62,562 nucleotides of DNA, from the UHGV virus genome UHGV-0106067. The stretch is one strand, 5' to 3'. Within the stretch, counting starts at the first letter, position 1. Every line of letters starts with the position of its first letter. The stretch is from a virus. Shown here one piece after another: positions 27,001-39,000 of the stretch. The position numbers are program-made.

Positions 27001-30000
27001 TCTTCTCTGGGGGAAGCGCCGCCAGAATGACGGCGCGGTAGTGAAGGTAATCAAACATTTATGGCCTGAATCCCGTTTTTTTCAATAACGGAAAGAAGCG
27101 CGCCGCGCCGGGCGGAAACAGAAACGATGGGAGGGTGCATGTAAGGCGTTGCAAGAACTGAATAAATACCGTGACTTGATCAACGAATTGTCAGAGTGAG
27201 CGAAGCGGGAATCCACGTCCTTTAGGGCGTGGATGATATCAGGCTGTTGAAATACATGTAGAAAAGGAGCGCATACTATGACCGAAAAAGAGGTTTCTGA
27301 TTTGTTACAAAAAAGGCGCACAGCTTTGTATAATTTGCGAAAAAAACACGGATTCCCGGAACCAGTACTTACTCATCCGGCGCGATATAGTCGTCAGGCC
27401 GTTGAACAATGGCTTAAAGCCGGAGGAATTAACCGAGCTGTTTAGCGTGCCAGAAAATTTTATCAGCATACAACTCATACGCATCTTTCTGTTCCGACAA
27501 CCAGTCGTGTTTATTATACACGGCCATAACTCCCCCAAGTTCATGCCCCAGCATTTTTTCAGTGACGTGGGGCATAATTCCTTCCCCAGATAAATTCGTT
27601 ACCAGAGAACGCCTAAAATCATGCGTTCTCCATTCAGGAATATCAATTTTCTCCCTTAACTTTTTCATGTACAAATTAGCCGACGAACGATCAATAGGTT
27701 TATCTATTTCCTGCCCGGGGAATAGCACATCAAAACCCGCATTAAGCAATCTCTCGATATAAGGTTTAACCTGAGTGAATACCGGACGCCGGATAATATT
27801 CCCCATTTTTGAATGCTCTTTTGGGGTTGTCCAGACCAGATCTTCCATGTTGAACTCACTGGCTGTCGCGAGACGTAGCTCAGAAAGTCTGGCCCCCCAT
27901 AGCAATAGCAATTGATGTAACACCTTGTTGGAAGTAACTACTTTTGAGTTCTCCAGCGCCAGCCAAATTTTTGCCAGTTCCGTATAGGTAAGTACACGAC
28001 TCCCTACATCTGGTTTTTTCCCAATATTCTTAACACTAAGCTTGAGTAATTCGCATGATGGGATTAACTGGCGGCTGATACACCAGTTAATAACTGAACG
28101 CAGTTGTAACAACAAAACACGAGCCTTTTTCTTGTTGAGGCTTTCTTGTTTGTCAAAGAAACGAGCCCATGCCGATACTGGGATACTGGCAACTGGCGAG
28201 CCTTCAAACTGTGTGTACATAGTGTTGTACACGACGGATCTGTAAAGCGTCTGTGTATTGGGTTTCAGATCAGTAACATACTTATCCCACCACTGATCCA
28301 GGCATTCTTTTAATGTCAGTTCGCCGTCACTGGGCGCAAAATAATTTTTAGGGTTAACTCCCTTCATGTACAATGCGCGCATCTCACCGACGATAACACG
28401 CGCGTCCTTCAGTGAAGTAGACGGATAGCGCCCGACAGTAAGACGTACTGGCTTACCATTCCAGCGATAACGGTACTGAAACGTGATAGTTCCTGCTGGA
28501 GTAATCCGCACACTTAACCCGTCACCATCGGTGATTTCAGCAGGGCCAGAGTAGGGTTTTCCGTAGAGGCCTCGTAGTTTGGTGTCGCTCAGTGCCAATG
28601 CTTTATATCCTGTACACAAGTTTATAATGTATTCTGTACTCAATATGTACGCATTAGCAAGTGAACAAAACACTTTTCAACGCAAAAGAAGATAATCAAC
28701 CATGAACAAAAACGAACTTACACCTTGATTTTAAAACCATAAAGACGGTATTATCAGTCATATGGTGAACAACCAAAATCAATACGCAACAATGTCCTCT
28801 TAGTTAAATGGATATAATGAATACAAGCATTAACTAATTGATTTAAATACAGAAAGCACCAAAATAATCGTCATATCCGTACCCATTTATGTACACATCC
28901 CGTTAAGCATGCCCCGCACTTCCGTACGGGGCATGTTCTTTACTCCACTCCCACTTTTTTGTTGTACTCGCGGTTAAACCGATCCACGGCAATTTTCATA
29001 TCCCGCTCAACCGATTTCACCATCGCCGACTGTTGCGCCAGACTGAGAGTACTGTCGGCGTAAATGGCATCACGCTGTTTACGCAAATCCTTCAGTCTCT
29101 TCCGGGTATCCTGCATAAGCCCGTTCATCAACAATTTTCCGTTGTTCTCGTCAATGAACGCCGTTCTTTCTGCACCGGTCAGACTCTTCAGCTCTGCGTG
29201 ATACTGCGCAACCTCTGTCATCCGGTCGTACATCTTCTGCTGGTCTGCATACGGCATCACCTCACCCGAAATTTTCCCCAGGAAGGGCACCTGCTGCTCC
29301 GGTATATCAATACCGTTCAGCGATTTCACCGCCGCATCTGTGGTTTTGGAAATGAAGCGCCCTGTCCCTCCGGAGATATAGTCAATCCAGAATTTCAGCG
29401 ATTCCGGTGTGATATCCACCGCGCCGGGACGATACTGGCTGCCACCTGAGAACGCATTCAGCCAGGATGCAAACGCCTTGTACGCCTCAGGCGTTGAACG
29501 TCTGCCCAGCTGGCTGTCCGGTTTCGGTGTGCCAAATGGCATGTTCTCCTGGTAAATCTGCGCCCCCATGAAGTTTTCATTCATGGCAAGGTTCGCAAAC
29601 GGACGCAGAATGGTCGGCGCTGCATTTTTCAGCAATGCCCCGGACAGTGTTTCCGACGTTTCACTGCCCACAGGACTGAATGCCCCCAGGATACCACCGA
29701 CAACATTACCGGCAGCACGTGAAGCAGTCAGGTCGCCCGCTGCCACACCTTCAGCAGTATGCCCGAGCAGGAAGAAAACGTTGTACCCGTAAGGCAGAGG
29801 AATACTCCAGTACTCTCCGGCCTTGCCCCCGAACACCGATTTCATAATGACGAGGTTACGCTCTTTCACATGAGACGGCACCTTGTCATACCAGTTAACC
29901 CCGTCATCATCCTCCCCCGCAACACTGCGGTTAAGCGAGCCAAGCAGATAACCCGCTCCCACAGCTGCAAGCGCGATTTTCTGCGGTACATTGAGATTCT

Positions 30001-36000: not shown

Positions 36001-39000
36001 CCTGACGTTTTCCACGATATCCGGCAACCGCACCGAACGGTGCGCCCATCGCTGCACCAAGAGCGGCTCCTTCGATCGTTGCGTCAGCTACCCCCTCCCA
36101 TGGTGATACATCCATTCCGGCAGTCTCACGCAACGTCATATTTTCCTGGTAACGCGAATAGCCGCCCTGCGCCGCATTAATCGTCCCCTGTTCCGTGGCA
36201 TTTCTGACAATGCCGCTTTTAACGGTCTTCGCCGTGCCCCGCATCGCCAGATTAAACAACTGAGCATCGCCCAGTTTTGCCGCCATGGCATTCACAGCCA
36301 GCAATTCAGGATCGGTTGCCAGCTGCGCGCGCACCTCATCGGCAACACGCTCTTTTGCCAGATCCATTTTCTGGCGATCAGTAAGCTGTGCGTGCTGCGG
36401 ATCTGCATCAATTGACAAAAACGTCTGCTGAAATTTCGGGGACTTCGCCAGCTCAGAGTAATCCGCGTTAAGAACAGAGTCTGCTGCTGCCATTGCACTC
36501 TGCCCCTGTGCGCTGGCTGAGGAATGGGTGATCAGGCCTGCCTGGAATAAATCCGGCATTTTTTTATCGACAGCTTCTGCTGCCAGTGCGGTAGCTCTTT
36601 CCGGCTGCATCCCTGCCGCAATGTATTTTTTCTCCAGCCCGGCGGTCAGCACTTTTCGCAGAGTGACTTCACCCAGCTTTTTAGTCACACCGCCTGCAAC
36701 CATATCAGGTACAAGGGCACCAATCAGGTTTACGCCCTTCGCCACCCAGACCGCAGAATCATCATAGCCTTCAGTCATCGGTGTATTCAGCGCCCGCTGC
36801 GCCCCCGGCGACATCTTGCCAGTCAGCCATTCATCCGAGGCTTTAGCGCCGCCACTGACTGCCTTGCCTGTGACCTTCAGACCTTTACCGACAGTATCAG
36901 TAACCGCATTTTTTCCATCAGGCAGAGTGTCGATGACCTCATCCGCCCCCTTGCTGCCACCGACAAAAATATCCTGAACAGTTGCGACTCCCGGCAGCCC
37001 CATACGGCTGAACTCATTTAAAATACGCGCCCCTGTTTTTACCGGGCTCTGAATCATCGCATCACCGAGTCCACGGGCCATTTCCCCTGCCCCCCGGACA
37101 GACTGGGCGACACCTTTCCCCATCGTTGGTAATACATCACTCAGGCTGAACGATGTGCTGTGATCAACAGCGTTCTCCGGGTTGTTGAAAAAATCCTGCC
37201 AGTAATTTTCGCCCGGCTGCTTAATGTTCAGGCTGCTGCGGTTCCGGTTACCCAATTGTGCTTCAGGGCGCTGTTCATCTGAATAAGCCATACAGACTCC
37301 AGTAAAAAAAAGCCCGACGCGATGGTCGGGCGTAAGTGAACGAGATTAACGGGAAGTGCGTTACTGCCGCGTAACTTTACTTCATCCAGCCTCTGATCTC
37401 TTCGGCTGATGCAGCAGCGCTATAATTCTTCGCTTTTTCCTGTTCGGCTTTTTTATCCCGGAGGTGATTCTGGTACCAAATTTCCAGCTCCTTTTCACGC
37501 CCCGGTTCCAGCAAGGCTGGCATATTGGCGGCAGTCGCTTTGACAAACTCCAGTTTGACCGGATCGCCCTCCGCCCAGGTCTGCCCCTTCTGTAAAAGCT
37601 GTTCAAATTTCTGTTGCTGAATTTTCTGCTGATATTCCGGTAAACCATGCGCAGCTAAAAATTCATCCCTCGCAGCCTGAGCATTACCGCCGTTCTTGAT
37701 CGCTTCCGCTGCTACCTGGCTGGCTTCTTTCTGAATATCTTTCAGAGAAAGCCCCTCCTGCTTCGGCGTGAAATAACCGAAATTTTTCGAAATTTCCGCG
37801 AATTTACTGCGATCCCTGACAAGCTCAACAGCCTTATCAACAGGCACCGCCAGCACGGTTTGATCATCAGGATGTGCACTGCCGTATTCTGTTACAGGTT
37901 TATGCGCGGTGGAGCCATCGCTGTATGTGAGATCAAGGCCAATAAGTACGTACCCTTCCTGCTGCGCCGGTACGATACTGCCAATCCTGGCCTCTTTTAT
38001 CGTCTTTTTCCCGGTTGAATCGGGCATGCCAATACGCTGTTGCAGTTCCGGGGCAAACACACCAGAAAGCGCATCAAGACTTTCCGGGGTATTGAGTGAA
38101 GCGATCGCCCTGTCCGGCTTGTCATCAAAGATTTTTTGCAGGTTGTTCACGGCCTGACCCGCTTTCGCTGCATAGCCTTCACTTGACATAAGAGTTAATG
38201 GATGTCCCTTTGGTAACTGCCCGTAAATACGCATTGCAGCCTCCTGATCGCCAGCATCAATTGCTTTTCCAAGCGCTGTCATTAATGGCTGGCTGTGGGC
38301 AATCATATCGTTATACTCAAGCCGTCGCTGGTTGTATTTTTCCAGTTGCAGCCTCTGCTGAGAAATGCCAAGTGACGCATTCCGGTAATTCTGCGCTGCG
38401 GCGTGTTCCCTCTCTTTCAGCGCATATTCACGATCGGCATTTTTGACATTAAGATCATATGTACGCTGATCATTTTCCTTTCGATGCTCAAACTGCGACT
38501 GCGCAAATTCAAAATCGCGCTCGTTATTTTTCTGTTGTTGAGCAAGCTGTGCTTCACGCAGACCAAGCTCCTTACGACGGGTCATGGCCTGGTCAACGGT
38601 GCTGAATCCGGCAAGTAACCCCTGTGCAAATCCGCTCATTCACCACTCCTTAAAACAACGAACCAGCAAGACCACCGATGACTGCACCAATAGCGGCACC
38701 GGGGAGACCACCAACAGCAGCGCCCATAGCTGCACCCGTACCAATTCCCGTGCCGATATTCTGTTTGTTCTGCGCTTTCTGTTGCGCCGCCATCTGTTTG
38801 TTCGCGGCCTCAATTTCTTCACGTCGTCTGTCGGCATCACTTATTCCCTGTAATGCCTCACGCCGCGACTGATTCGCAATATCCAGTAAACCGTATCCCA
38901 TATTTCCTCCTTACGCTGACACCAGTTGTCCGCCAACACTCAGTTGCTGTCTTGCAGGTGCAGAAGCCCCCGTCAGTATGTTCATCTGGCGATCCTGCTC

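What the first reader, a model, noticed from the sequence alone, without database searches (positions are those of the whole stretch)
28940..37291. 2783-aa single ORF with a zincin HExxH motif at the end of the tail module
An 8.35-kb uninterrupted reading frame is exceptional for a 62-kb phage (13% of the genome).
- It contains ALAHEWFHSLDNYFG (HExxH) about two-thirds along, and long low-complexity, Pro/Gln/Glu-rich spacer regions.
- Podoviruses often inject large internal proteins. A metalloprotease-like module in an ejected protein could target host envelope or defence proteins.
- Similar giant ORFs exist in some Stx2 phages, but their function is unknown.
Basis: partly seen in the sequence, partly recalled or inferred. 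Interest (0 to 1): 0.5.

Follow-up and report, generated by a model that had tools for sequence, protein, structure and literature searches.

The report
Giant injected protein of Stx phages
This 2783-residue gene is the already described giant protein that short-tailed Shiga-toxin phages pack inside the capsid; it carries two zinc-protease-like domains whose targets are still unknown, so the finding is real but not new.

Summary
The ORF is real: 28940-37291 on the minus strand, 2783 aa, the last gene of the late operon, just before the integrase.

It is the ortholog (about 90-96% aa identity) of Sp5 ORF80/ECs1242, 933W L0134 and phi24B gp47.
- Deleting the Sp5 gene abolishes plaques and lysogenisation, but DNA is still packaged.
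- The phi24B protein is abundant in virions (93.6% peptide coverage) yet invisible by cryo-EM.

Pfam places it among the "polyvalent proteins" (LPD5, LPD1, MuF_C, LPD38).

New here:
- A second zincin-type motif (H1540, E1541, H1544/5, E1596; HExxxH type) is commoner in the family than the first.
- A ~915-aa C-terminal module defines more than 8500 protein clusters and always sits at the C-terminus, behind variable cargo.
- A [FY]-S-[RK] motif marks the domain junctions.

The protease substrates are untested. Peptidoglycan cleavage and an AAA+ role are not supported.

The parts
28940..37291 (-). Whole ORF, 2783 aa plus stop. Ortholog of Sp5 ORF80/ECs1242, 933W L0134, phi24B gp47 and Stx2-86 gp35.
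   Evidence: 186 phage records match at 90% nt identity or more over the whole gene. PHROG 616 matches end to end. 89.6% aa identity to phi24B and 89.8% to VT2-Sakai H0150.
37297..37300 (-). GGAG ribosome-binding site, 5 nt upstream of the ATG.
   Evidence: Upstream sequence printed.
37302..37331 (-). Terminator-like hairpin GCCCGAC-CATCGC-GTCGGGC followed by T8, between the upstream 420-aa gene and the giant ORF.
   Evidence: That it is read through under Q antitermination is an inference.
35882..36994 (-). N-terminal conserved region (aa 100-470). It is Gly/Ala-rich, with weakly hydrophobic segments at aa 180-198 and 406-424, and no Pfam family.
   Evidence: Shared with Vibrio phage K249 (aa 160-407, 30% identity). 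Present in 16 of 150 family representatives.
34604..35881 (-). Pro/Gln/Glu/Ala-rich spacer of low hydrophobicity (aa 471-896).
   Evidence: dN/dS is 0.09 for aa 471-800.
32972..34603 (-). Cargo unit (aa 897-1440). It starts at the motif DFGEEIKGAAK and comprises LPD5, zincin 1 and LPD1. The part modelled (aa 1041-1440) folds as one compact body.
   Evidence: Pfam LPD5 at aa 1046-1189 and LPD1 at aa 1350-1429. NCBIfam CLCA_X matches aa 1171-1426 at E 1.5e-44, below its cut-off. AF2 on aa 1041-1440 gives pLDDT 88.4 and pTM 0.82. The solo ~330-aa homologs start with the same DFGxKIGGARKD motif.
33005..33724 (-). Zincin-like metallopeptidase 1 (aa 1190-1429), a gluzincin fold. Near-invariant residues are H1252-Y-E, H1273, E1274, W1275, H1277, D1280, Y1358, E1364, R1368, F1370 and E1371.
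33461..33475 (-).
   Evidence: It is essentially invariant as HEWxHxxD in homologs down to 36% identity.
32312..32929 (-). Second zincin-type domain (aa 1455-1660), of the HExxxH type. E1541, H1544 and E1596 are invariant.
   Evidence: Present in 108 of 150 family representatives. The fold was not modelled.
32657..32674 (-). HEIIHH (aa 1540-1545). It reads both as HExxH and as HExxxH.
31799..32077 (-). MuF_C domain (aa 1739-1831). In Iyer et al. this is a PBECR RNase-like domain, not a peptidase.
   Evidence: Pfam PF18819, E 1.1e-16. Definition taken from PMC5512222.
28943..31687 (-). C-terminal carrier module (aa 1869-2783). It is mostly alpha-helical with one small beta domain, and contains LPD38 (aa 2466-2671).
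32972..32980 (-). Junction motif YSR (aa 1438-1440, in GVAFYSRKG), at the end of the zincin 1 unit.
32279..32287 (-). Junction motif YSR (aa 1669-1671, in SSQYSRSGK), just after zincin 2.
31676..31684 (-). Junction motif YSR (aa 1870-1872, in GPYYSRTSS), between MuF_C and the C-terminal module.
37377..40013 (-). Upstream genes of 420, 83, 150 and 217 aa. By position they correspond to phi24B gp48, gp49, gp50 and gp51. They are probably further internal virion proteins.
   Evidence: PHROGs 601, 594, 596 and 611. The 420-aa product is 77% identical to phi24B gp48. gp48, gp50 and gp51 are abundant in virions and have no structure-derived copy number ('ND'). By position the 420-aa gene corresponds to Sp5 ORF79, which is essential and has the same phenotype as ORF80.

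Best explanation
The ORF encodes the giant internal virion ('ejection' or 'polyvalent') protein of the 933W/Sp5/phi24B group of short-tailed Stx phages.

Proposed mechanism:
1. It is made late, as the last gene of the morphogenesis operon.
2. It is packaged inside the T=9 capsid in roughly 10-30 copies.
3. It leaves through the portal and tail with the DNA at infection.

The ~915-aa C-terminal module is the family-defining carrier. I infer that it mediates incorporation into the head and/or exit and envelope crossing, and that it accounts for the gene being essential.

Upstream of the carrier sit exchangeable cargo domains:
- a second zincin-type domain of the HExxxH type;
- a MuF-C/PBECR RNase-like domain.

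Most likely roles of the two peptidases:
- The second, family-wide peptidase cuts the polyprotein at the [FY]-S-[RK] junction motifs, in the capsid or after ejection.
- The LPD5-zincin unit acts on a cytoplasmic host protein. Its solo homologs are encoded among early-type phage genes, where there is no polyprotein to process.

What is shown: the ORF, its domains, the zincin fold, the conserved active-site residues, and the family architecture. For orthologs, virion presence and essentiality are also shown.

What is inferred: ejection into the cell, the division of labour between the two peptidases, the cleavage sites, and the substrates.
For: Orthology
- 186 phage records match over the whole gene.
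- 89.6% aa identity to phi24B gp47, with both motifs and all four YSR conserved.
- 89.8% aa identity to VT2-Sakai H0150, which is Sp5 ORF80.

Virion presence of the ortholog
- 12,608 spectra, 422 peptides and 93.6% coverage.
- Most spectra are in gel bands above the 80-kDa portal band.
- The authors estimate 11-35 copies per virion, and the protein is not in the cryo-EM model.

Essentiality
- Sp5 deltaORF80 excises and packages DNA but gives no plaques or lysogens, and is complemented.

Related phages
- Bcep22-like JC1 has a portal, capsid and head-closure protein homologous to those of 933W. Its 4515-aa 'DarB-like' protein occupies the same genomic position and is found in virions by MS.
- Our C-terminus matches that PHROG and those phages.

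Family architecture
- The C-terminal module hits 8572 50%-identity clusters.
- In the 150 best hits it is almost always at the extreme C-terminus of proteins 555-5181 aa long.
- The cargo differs. For example, P0153 carries ddrB-ParB, an Eco57I methylase, ResIII/SNF2 and RadC. BFVD relatives carry LT_GEWL, RelA/SpoT or a methylase.

Zincin 1
- It shows the signature Iyer et al. describe for a phage-type clade: a His at the end of strand 2 and an Asp three residues after HExxH.

Zincin 2
- Found in 108 of 150 representatives, with HExxxH in 89 of the 108.
- E1541, H1544 and E1596 are invariant.
- It has the strongest purifying selection in the gene, dN/dS 0.06.

Solo LPD5-zincin genes
- They lie in arrays of small genes transcribed divergently from terminase and portal.
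- They have no signal peptide.

Junction motif
-.
Against: - No direct experiment shows ejection into the cell, zinc binding, proteolysis, or processing of this protein.
- In phi24B virions most of the signal is at very high molecular weight. Complete processing before or inside the capsid is therefore unlikely. The ladder of smaller species could simply be degradation, because that sample had been stored for six months.
- Sp5 deltaORF80 particles did not bind the anti-tail-fibre antibody. The authors read this as a tail-assembly role. An internal protein explains it only if tail attachment or stability depends on it.
- The zincin fold of the second domain rests on motifs only. hhalign against zincin 1 gave E about 0.1, and the profile search against PDB sequences found nothing.
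- An estimate of about 19 copies of a 305-kDa protein per capsid is large and rests on rough spectral counting.
Confidence: 0.72

Rival explanations
1. It is a tail-assembly factor, possibly an energy-using AAA+ protein. It would act during morphogenesis and not be an ejected protein. This is the reading of the Sp5 knock-out paper.
For: Sp5 deltaORF80 makes DNA-filled heads of normal appearance, but no anti-tail-fibre antibody binding was detected. The authors noted a COG1483 (AAA+) hit.
Against: No AAA+ or other ATPase family appears in Pfam at E up to 1, or in NCBIfam. The phi24B ortholog is a major component of purified virions over its full length, which is not expected of a catalytic assembly factor. 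It is absent from the resolved tail. Homologs in other phages carry effector-type cargo.
Confidence: 0.08
2. The metallopeptidase digests peptidoglycan so that an ejected conduit can reach the inner membrane. This is the reading of the phi24B preprint.
For: Podoviruses need to cross the cell wall. The phi24B authors propose this role. Some family members carry lytic transglycosylase cargo, so cell-wall enzymes do occur in this type of protein.
Against: The preprint attributes the peptidase to 'MuF-C', which is defined as an RNase-like PBECR domain. The nearest folds of the real zincin domain are protein endopeptidases: MtfA, Pro-Pro endopeptidases, lethal factor, thermolysin and neprilysin. 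Among the 60 listed hits I recognise no cell-wall peptidase, judging from my own knowledge of their descriptions. Solo homologs lack signal peptides and sit among early-type genes, which implies a cytoplasmic site of action.
Confidence: 0.1
3. The HExxH domains are catalytically dead structural relics. The protein would work only as a scaffold or conduit.
For: No enzymatic data exist. N4 vRNAP is packaged unprocessed although it has such a domain. Most phi24B gp47 signal is at high molecular weight.
Against: All catalytic positions are near-invariant across homologs of 15-40% identity, in both domains: H, E, H and a downstream Glu, plus clade-specific His and Asp in domain 1. dN/dS is 0.06-0.19. 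Relics normally lose these residues.
Confidence: 0.1

Closest known systems
Sp5 (VT2-Sakai) ORF80/ECs1242, 933W L0134, phi24B gp47 (vb_24B_48), Stx2-86 gp35
   Same: Orthologs. They have the same length class (2783-2811 aa), the same position as the last late gene, 89-96% aa identity, and the same motifs.
   Different: Alleles are mosaic. Against Sakai, aa 801-1190 (spacer end plus LPD5) is only 57-75% identical with saturated dS, while the rest is 84-99%.
Polyvalent proteins of phages and conjugative elements (Iyer, Burroughs, Anand, de Souza, Aravind 2017, PMC5512222)
   Same: A large polypeptide combining unrelated domains from that paper's catalogue: LPD5, a zincin-like MPTase, LPD1, MuF-C/PBECR and the phage-only LPD38. 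It is encoded with the virion genes. One MPTase shows the described phage-type signature and the other the described HExxxH form.
   Different: The paper's main text does not mention Stx phages or 933W. It treats LPD1 as a separate domain of unknown function, whereas here LPD1 holds the Glu helix of the zincin. It describes no junction motif.
Giant 'DarB-like' virion proteins of Bcep22-like and GP4-like podophages (Bcep22 gp75, JC1 gp69)
   Same: Homologous C-terminal ~800-900 aa. They occupy the same position at the end of the morphogenesis module of ~60-kb podophages, some of which (Bcep22-like JC1) have 933W-like portal and capsid proteins, and are found in virions by MS.
   Different: Their cargo is methylase, helicase and lytic transglycosylase. 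No such domain is present here.
Coliphage N4 virion RNA polymerase gp50
   Same: A giant (~3500 aa) protein packaged in a T=9 podovirus capsid and injected. It carries a zincin-like MPTase related to lethal factor (T=9 for N4-type phages is from my own knowledge).
   Different: There is no RNA polymerase module here. No sequence similarity outside the zincin class was detected.
Ejection (internal core) proteins of T7 (gp14/15/16) and P22 (gp7/16/20)
   Same: It works like them in outline. It is internal, invisible in symmetric reconstructions, required for infectivity but not for DNA packaging, and encoded in a cluster with other internal proteins.
   Different: No sequence or fold relationship was found. 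It is far larger and carries enzymatic cargo.
MtfA (3dl1), Pro-Pro endopeptidases PPEP-2/3 (6fpc, 9g0j), anthrax lethal factor (1yqy)
   Different: Only 12-16% identity. This domain has an extra conserved His (HYEP), an Asp at H+3, and an N-terminal LPD5 body packed against it.

Membership tests
Polyvalent proteins (Iyer et al. 2017) | One polypeptide that joins two or more unrelated domains from the polyvalent-protein domain set. | tested here: met
   Pfam LPD5, LPD1, MuF_C and LPD38 are all above their cut-offs, plus two zincin-type domains.
Polyvalent proteins (Iyer et al. 2017) | Encoded in a phage late/virion gene context, or with conjugation genes. | tested here: met
   It is the last gene of the portal, capsid and tail operon, next to the integrase.
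Polyvalent proteins (Iyer et al. 2017) | Transferred into the recipient cell together with the DNA. | not testable with these tools
   Only packaging is documented, and only for the phi24B ortholog.
Zincin / gluzincin metallopeptidases (domain 1, aa 1190-1429) | HExxH on a helix, conserved in the family. | tested here: met
   HEWxH occurs in nearly all of 120 homologs. It lies on helix 231-244 of the model.
Zincin / gluzincin metallopeptidases (domain 1, aa 1190-1429) | A third metal ligand (Glu) on a following helix. | tested here: met
   E1364 is invariant and E1371 near-invariant, on helix 322-340 of the model.
Zincin / gluzincin metallopeptidases (domain 1, aa 1190-1429) | The zincin core fold: an N-terminal helix, a three-stranded sheet and two C-terminal helices. 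| tested here: met
Zincin / gluzincin metallopeptidases (domain 1, aa 1190-1429) | Zinc binding and peptidase activity. | not testable with these tools
   This needs biochemistry.
HExxxH-type MPTase clade of polyvalent proteins (domain 2, aa 1455-1660) | An HExxxH motif plus a conserved downstream Glu. | tested here: met
   89 of 108 family domains have HExxxH. E1541, H1544 and E1596 are invariant.
HExxxH-type MPTase clade of polyvalent proteins (domain 2, aa 1455-1660) | The zincin fold. | tested here: inconclusive
   hhalign against domain 1 gives E about 0.1 but aligns the strand-His hairpin and HE. Pfam Peptidase_M76 scores only E 0.13. The PDB profile search found nothing.
Podovirus ejection proteins (T7 gp14-16, P22 gp7/16/20) | Located inside the capsid, and needed for infectivity but not for DNA packaging. 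| tested here: met
   From the literature on orthologs only.
Podovirus ejection proteins (T7 gp14-16, P22 gp7/16/20) | Sequence or fold homology to the T7 or P22 proteins. | tested here: not met
P1 DarB-type antirestriction proteins | Methyltransferase and helicase domains. | tested here: not met
   Neither is found in Pfam or NCBIfam. Only the C-terminal carrier is shared with 'DarB-like' PHROG 10089.
AAA+ ATPase (COG1483, proposed for Sp5 ORF80) | A P-loop AAA+ domain. | tested here: not met
   No ATPase family at E up to 1 in Pfam or NCBIfam.
MuF / SPP1 gp7 head proteins | The N-terminal MuF (portal-associated) domain. | tested here: not met
   Only the MuF_C (PBECR) domain matches.

The most novel reading that the evidence does not exclude
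The giant protein would be a self-dismantling delivery vehicle.

- The family-wide HExxxH peptidase would cut at the conserved [P/I/V]-[L/R/M]-[F/Y]-S-[R/K] junction motifs once the protein has been ejected. In this protein those motifs are at aa 1438, 1669 and 1870.
- That would release the LPD5-gluzincin unit and the PBECR domain as free effectors. The gluzincin would then cleave a specific host protein, such as a defence or regulatory protein.
- The mosaic, highly diverged LPD5 allele block would reflect an arms race over that target.

Neither the junction motif nor this division of labour appears in the papers I read.
Probability: 0.3. Interest if true: 0.6.

Novelty: already known. Interest (0 to 1): 0.3.

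Why it matters
Short-tailed Stx phages spread Shiga toxin genes among E. coli. This one gene is 13% of their genome, is essential, and fills much of the capsid's spare volume, yet nobody knows what its enzymes cut.

This analysis turns a vague 'metalloprotease-like motif' into precise mutagenesis targets:
- two sets of active-site residues;
- three candidate cleavage sites;
- a conserved carrier module.

The carrier module occurs in more than 8500 protein clusters. Rules learnt here would therefore apply to a very large class of phage-delivered effector proteins. 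They could also show how to load foreign cargo into capsids.

Tried and rejected
- PDB sequence search with the whole protein: only chance hits, E 0.49 or higher.
- Profile of the second HExxH domain against PDB sequences: nothing relevant. Pfam at E up to 10 gave only Peptidase_M76 at E 0.13.
- hhalign of domain 2 against domain 1: not significant, E about 0.1. A first attempt was invalid because flanking LPD1 sequence in both alignments produced the match.
- Transmembrane helices: no segment exceeds a Kyte-Doolittle value of 1.4 over 19 residues. The Gly/Ala-rich segments at aa 180-198, 406-424 and 2435-2457 are only weakly hydrophobic. No claim of membrane insertion is made.
- AAA+ (Sp5 paper) and 'MuF-C metallopeptidase' (phi24B preprint): neither was reproduced.
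- Weak Pfam Arm-DNA-bind_4 hit (aa 1120-1142, below cut-off): disregarded.
- Mapping gp47 fragments to gel bands from the phi24B supplement: not possible, because the peptide sheet has no per-band counts.
- Genomic context of a 939-aa 'carrier only' protein (P0214): the contig ends 197 nt upstream of the gene, so it cannot show that cargo-free versions exist.
- Positive selection as the cause of the divergent LPD5 block: rejected. dN/dS is 0.16-0.24 with saturated dS, which indicates allele replacement by recombination.
- N-terminal 470 aa: only enterobacterial relatives and no domain assignment.

Full report
**1. The observation**

The ORF listing gives one ORF at 28940..37291 on the minus strand, 2783 aa with an ATG start. 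Translation shows no internal stop. It covers 8352 nt, or 13.35% of the window.

Chance can be excluded:
- With this window's base composition, the probability of 2783 stop-free codons is about 10^-54.7.
- The frame is under purifying selection: dN/dS is 0.15-0.17 overall against two orthologs.

A GGAG lies 5 nt before the ATG.

The peptide ALAHEWFHSLDNYFG is present, but its HExxH starts at residue 1273. That is 46% along the protein, not two-thirds. A second motif, HEIIHH at 1540-1545, was missed.

Pro/Gln/Glu enrichment is moderate: 27-32% in residues 401-600 and 701-900.

The gene is the last of the late operon. The order on the minus strand is: ORF next to the portal (presumed terminase by position; no Pfam hit), P22-type portal, capsid, collagen-like fibre, 567-aa ORF (phi24B nozzle counterpart by position), Phage_Tail_Tip protein, Lom, four small or medium genes, the giant ORF, integrase.

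**2. What it is: orthologs and published experiments**

The DNA matches 186 phage records at 90% identity or more over its whole length. All are Stx-converting or related Escherichia and Shigella short-tailed phages (Sepvirinae, Traversvirus).

Named orthologs:
- Stx2-86 gp35, annotated 'LPD5 domain-containing protein';
- VT2-Sakai H0150 (= Sp5 ORF80/ECs1242, similar to 933W L0134), 89.8% aa identity;
- phi24B vb_24B_48 (= 'gp47' of the 2026 preprint), 89.6% aa identity.

Two experimental papers bear directly on it.

Mondal et al. 2016 (PMC5155283) deleted Sp5 ORF80 (2793 aa). Prophage excision and DNase-resistant DNA packaging were normal. Plaques and lysogenisation were lost and could be complemented. 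Heads looked normal but did not bind anti-tail-fibre antibody.

Bubenchikov et al. 2026 (bioRxiv 10.64898/2026.04.10.717836) studied phi24B virions:
- gp47 was the second most abundant protein by spectra: 12,608 spectra, 422 peptides, 93.6% coverage.
- It was concentrated in gel bands above the 80-kDa portal band.
- They estimated 11-35 copies per virion.
- It was absent from both the intact and the emptied cryo-EM reconstructions.
- They propose that it is an encapsidated ejection protein.

**3. Domain anatomy**

Pfam finds four domains above their cut-offs: LPD5 (aa 1046-1189), LPD1 (1350-1429), MuF_C (1739-1831) and LPD38 (2466-2671). These come from the 'polyvalent protein' catalogue of Iyer et al. 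2017 (PMC5512222).

In that paper MuF-C is a PBECR, an RNase-like BECR-fold domain. The preprint's phrase 'MuF-C metallopeptidase domain' is therefore a mislabel. The peptidase lies elsewhere.

No AAA+ or other ATPase family is detected. The COG1483 hint of the Sp5 paper is not reproduced.

**4.

A search with aa 1181-1450 found 377 relatives. In the 120 listed, the motif is HEWxHxxD(N/H) almost without exception, down to 36% identity.

In a 61-sequence alignment (A1), the near-invariant residues are H1252-Y-E, H1273, E1274, W1275, H1277, D1280, Y1358, E1364, R1368, F1370 and E1371.

This is the signature Iyer et al. give for a widespread phage-type metallopeptidase clade: a conserved His at the end of strand 2, and an Asp three residues after HExxH.

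The AlphaFold2 model of aa 1041-1440 is confident, with pLDDT 88.4 and pTM 0.82. It has the zincin order: helix, three strands, HExxH helix, Glu helix.

- then mostly further zinc peptidases, including thermolysin, neprilysin and botulinum light chains.

Two corollaries follow:
- The Glu helix lies inside Pfam 'LPD1', so LPD1 is the C-terminal part of the peptidase and not a separate domain.
- LPD5 and the zincin form one compact body, given the high pTM over 400 residues.

NCBIfam 'CLCA_X' matches aa 1171-1426 at E 1.5e-44 but below its curated cut-off. I did not verify what that family is.

**5. A second, more widespread zincin-type domain**

The region aa 1455-1660 has only enterobacterial relatives in the word-indexed search. 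It is nevertheless shared with Vibrio phage K249's 2502-aa protein, where the motif reads HEILAH.

I searched the 150 representatives of the C-terminal family. The domain is present in 108 of them.
- 89 of the 108 have HExxxH (consensus HEvvGHyG).
- E1541, H1544 and E1596 are invariant.

This is the HExxxH variant that Iyer et al. mention.

It has the strongest constraint in the gene, dN/dS 0.06.

Sequence-based links to known zincins are not significant. Membership therefore rests on the motif triad.

**6. The C-terminal carrier**

HMMER with aa 1869-2783 against 1.84 billion cluster representatives gives 8572 hits at E 0.001 or better, and 4768 at 1e-30 or better. In the 150 best, the match almost always ends at the C-terminus, in proteins 555-5181 aa long.

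Frequencies of the other parts of this protein among those 150:

| Part | Representatives |
|---|---|
| Zincin 2 | 108 |
| Zincin 1 | 32 |
| LPD5 | 23 |
| N-terminal region | 16 |
| MuF_C | 9 |

Other members carry quite different cargo:
- ddrB-ParB, methylase, SNF2 and RadC;
- lytic transglycosylase, RelA/SpoT or a type I methylase.

tblastn finds the module in ~60-kb podophages of Vibrio (101 records), Ralstonia (GP4-like), Burkholderia (Bcep22-like), Ruegeria and Bacteroides.

In JC1, the homologous 4515-aa protein closes the morphogenesis module and is virion-associated by MS. JC1's portal, capsid and head-closure proteins are homologous to those of 933W. Synteny holds in Vibrio phage K249.

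The AF2 model (pLDDT 79.9, pTM 0.76) is mostly helical with one small beta domain. It has no informative match in the PDB and matches only relatives in BFVD.

The pattern of a constant C-terminal module behind variable N-terminal cargo argues that this module carries the essential, structural part of the function. The exact activity (head incorporation, exit, or conduit formation) is inferred, not shown.

**7. Where do the peptidases act?**

Solo ~330-aa versions of LPD5 + zincin 1 occur in one lineage of gut phages. They sit inside long arrays of small genes transcribed divergently from terminase and portal, which is typical of an early or host-takeover region. They have hydrophilic N-termini and no signal peptide.

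A solo enzyme has no polyprotein to process. Zincin 1 therefore probably has a trans substrate in the cytoplasm.

Against Sakai, the block aa 801-1190 (spacer end plus LPD5) is a different allele: 57-75% identity, dS 0.8-1.7, dN/dS 0.16-0.24. The rest of the protein is 84-99% identical. This is recombinational mosaicism centred on the putative recognition part.

A Salmonella ortholog has an extra ~260-aa insert between the two zincins, with a motif (YFILDDTLTQGGT) that looks to me like a PRPP-binding site. This again shows modular cargo.

**8. A junction motif (my own observation, not explained)**

YSR occurs four times in the protein, against 0.39 expected (Poisson 7e-4). Three occurrences fall at domain boundaries: aa 1438, 1669 and 1870. 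All four are conserved in phi24B.

In the cargo parts of 136 family representatives, [FY]S[RK] is twofold enriched (228 observed, 114 expected). Five permuted-order controls are at 0.99-1.28, and the carrier modules at 0.81.

The motif has sharp positional peaks:
- about 20-30 residues before my reference point near the start of the carrier module (the equivalent of aa 1890). 27% of representatives (strict pattern) or 42% (relaxed pattern) have it there, against 1-9% in control windows.
- 10-40 residues after zincin 2.

After zincin 1, the hairpin TExxG-VxL[FY]S[KR] is present only in sequences that continue into further domains. Solo proteins end before it.

Iyer et al. describe no such element.

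It could mark processing sites for the peptidases, or it could be a structural connector.

The phi24B gel shows strong gp47 signal in four bands above 80 kDa plus a tail of smaller species. That is compatible with partial cleavage. It is equally compatible with degradation of a sample stored for six months.

**9. Verdict**

The finding is real and correctly interpreted in outline, but it is a known object. It is the essential, capsid-packaged polyvalent protein of 933W-like Stx phages.

This analysis adds:
- the fold-level proof of the zincin;
- the redefinition of LPD1 as part of the peptidase;
- the second, family-wide HExxxH domain;
- the carrier-plus-cargo architecture across thousands of clusters;
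- the correction of two published annotations;
- a candidate junction motif.

The substrates and the timing of proteolysis remain open and are directly testable.

Noticed in passing
window 37302-37331 (- strand): A strong terminator-like hairpin (7-bp stem with 6 GC pairs, followed by T8) sits in the 85-nt gap between the upstream 420-aa gene and the giant ORF, on the coding strand. Late transcription presumably reads through it under Q antitermination. It might limit expression of the giant gene from non-antiterminated transcripts.
   Followed up: partly
window 37377-40013 (- strand): By position, the four genes just upstream (420, 83, 150 and 217 aa) correspond to phi24B gp48, gp49, gp50 and gp51. 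gp48, gp50 and gp51 are abundant in virions (estimated about 20-35 copies each) but have no structure-derived copy number in the cryo-EM work. By position the 420-aa gene corresponds to Sp5 ORF79, which is essential and has the same phenotype as ORF80. Together with the giant gene they look like a cluster of internal/ejection proteins. The preprint's working sheet labels gp48 'transcription factor?'.
   Followed up: partly
aa 1438, 1669, 1870 of the ORF (window 32972-32980, 32279-32287, 31676-31684) and 136 family representatives: A recurring [P/I/V]-[L/R/M]-[F/Y]-S-[R/K] motif at domain junctions. It is twofold enriched in cargo regions, has sharp positional peaks before the carrier module and after zincin 2, and is absent from solo versions of the zincin 1 unit. 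It is not described in the polyvalent-protein paper.
   Followed up: partly
protein P0129 (Salmonella enterica fragment), alignment A2 columns ~216-490: A Salmonella ortholog carries an extra ~260-aa domain between the two zincin domains, with a motif (YFILDDTLTQGGT) that looks to me like the PRPP-binding motif of phosphoribosyltransferases. This is an example of cargo insertion within otherwise 74%-identical proteins.
   Followed up: no
aa 801-1190 of the ORF (window 33722-34891): Against VT2-Sakai this block is a different allele (57-75% aa identity, dS 0.8-1.7), whereas its flanks are 84-99% identical. Against Stx2-86 the pattern is reversed: that block is nearly identical, while aa 1-470 and 1701-1868 diverge. 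The gene is a recombinational mosaic.
   Followed up: yes
window 46488-47762 (- strand): A 424-aa ORF in the tail-fibre region ends in a YadA-like membrane-anchor domain (Pfam PF03895, E 1.4e-16), the anchor of trimeric autotransporter adhesins. This is unusual inside a phage tail module.
   Followed up: no
loci L002, L008 (metagenomic phage contigs): Solo 328-336-aa LPD5 + zincin proteins sit in long arrays of small genes with no Pfam hit, transcribed divergently from terminase and portal. This suggests an early-expressed cytoplasmic protease in those phages.
   Followed up: partly
HM208303 (L009) 3149-11572 and internal minus-strand CDS: The GenBank record of phi24B starts the gene 13 codons further upstream and notes a 'putative leader peptide'. 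It also annotates three small ORFs on the opposite strand inside the gene. In this window a stop codon precludes the longer start and the N-terminus is hydrophilic, so the leader peptide is probably an annotation artefact.
   Followed up: partly
whole window: ARAGORN finds no tRNA gene in the 62.5-kb window.
   Followed up: no
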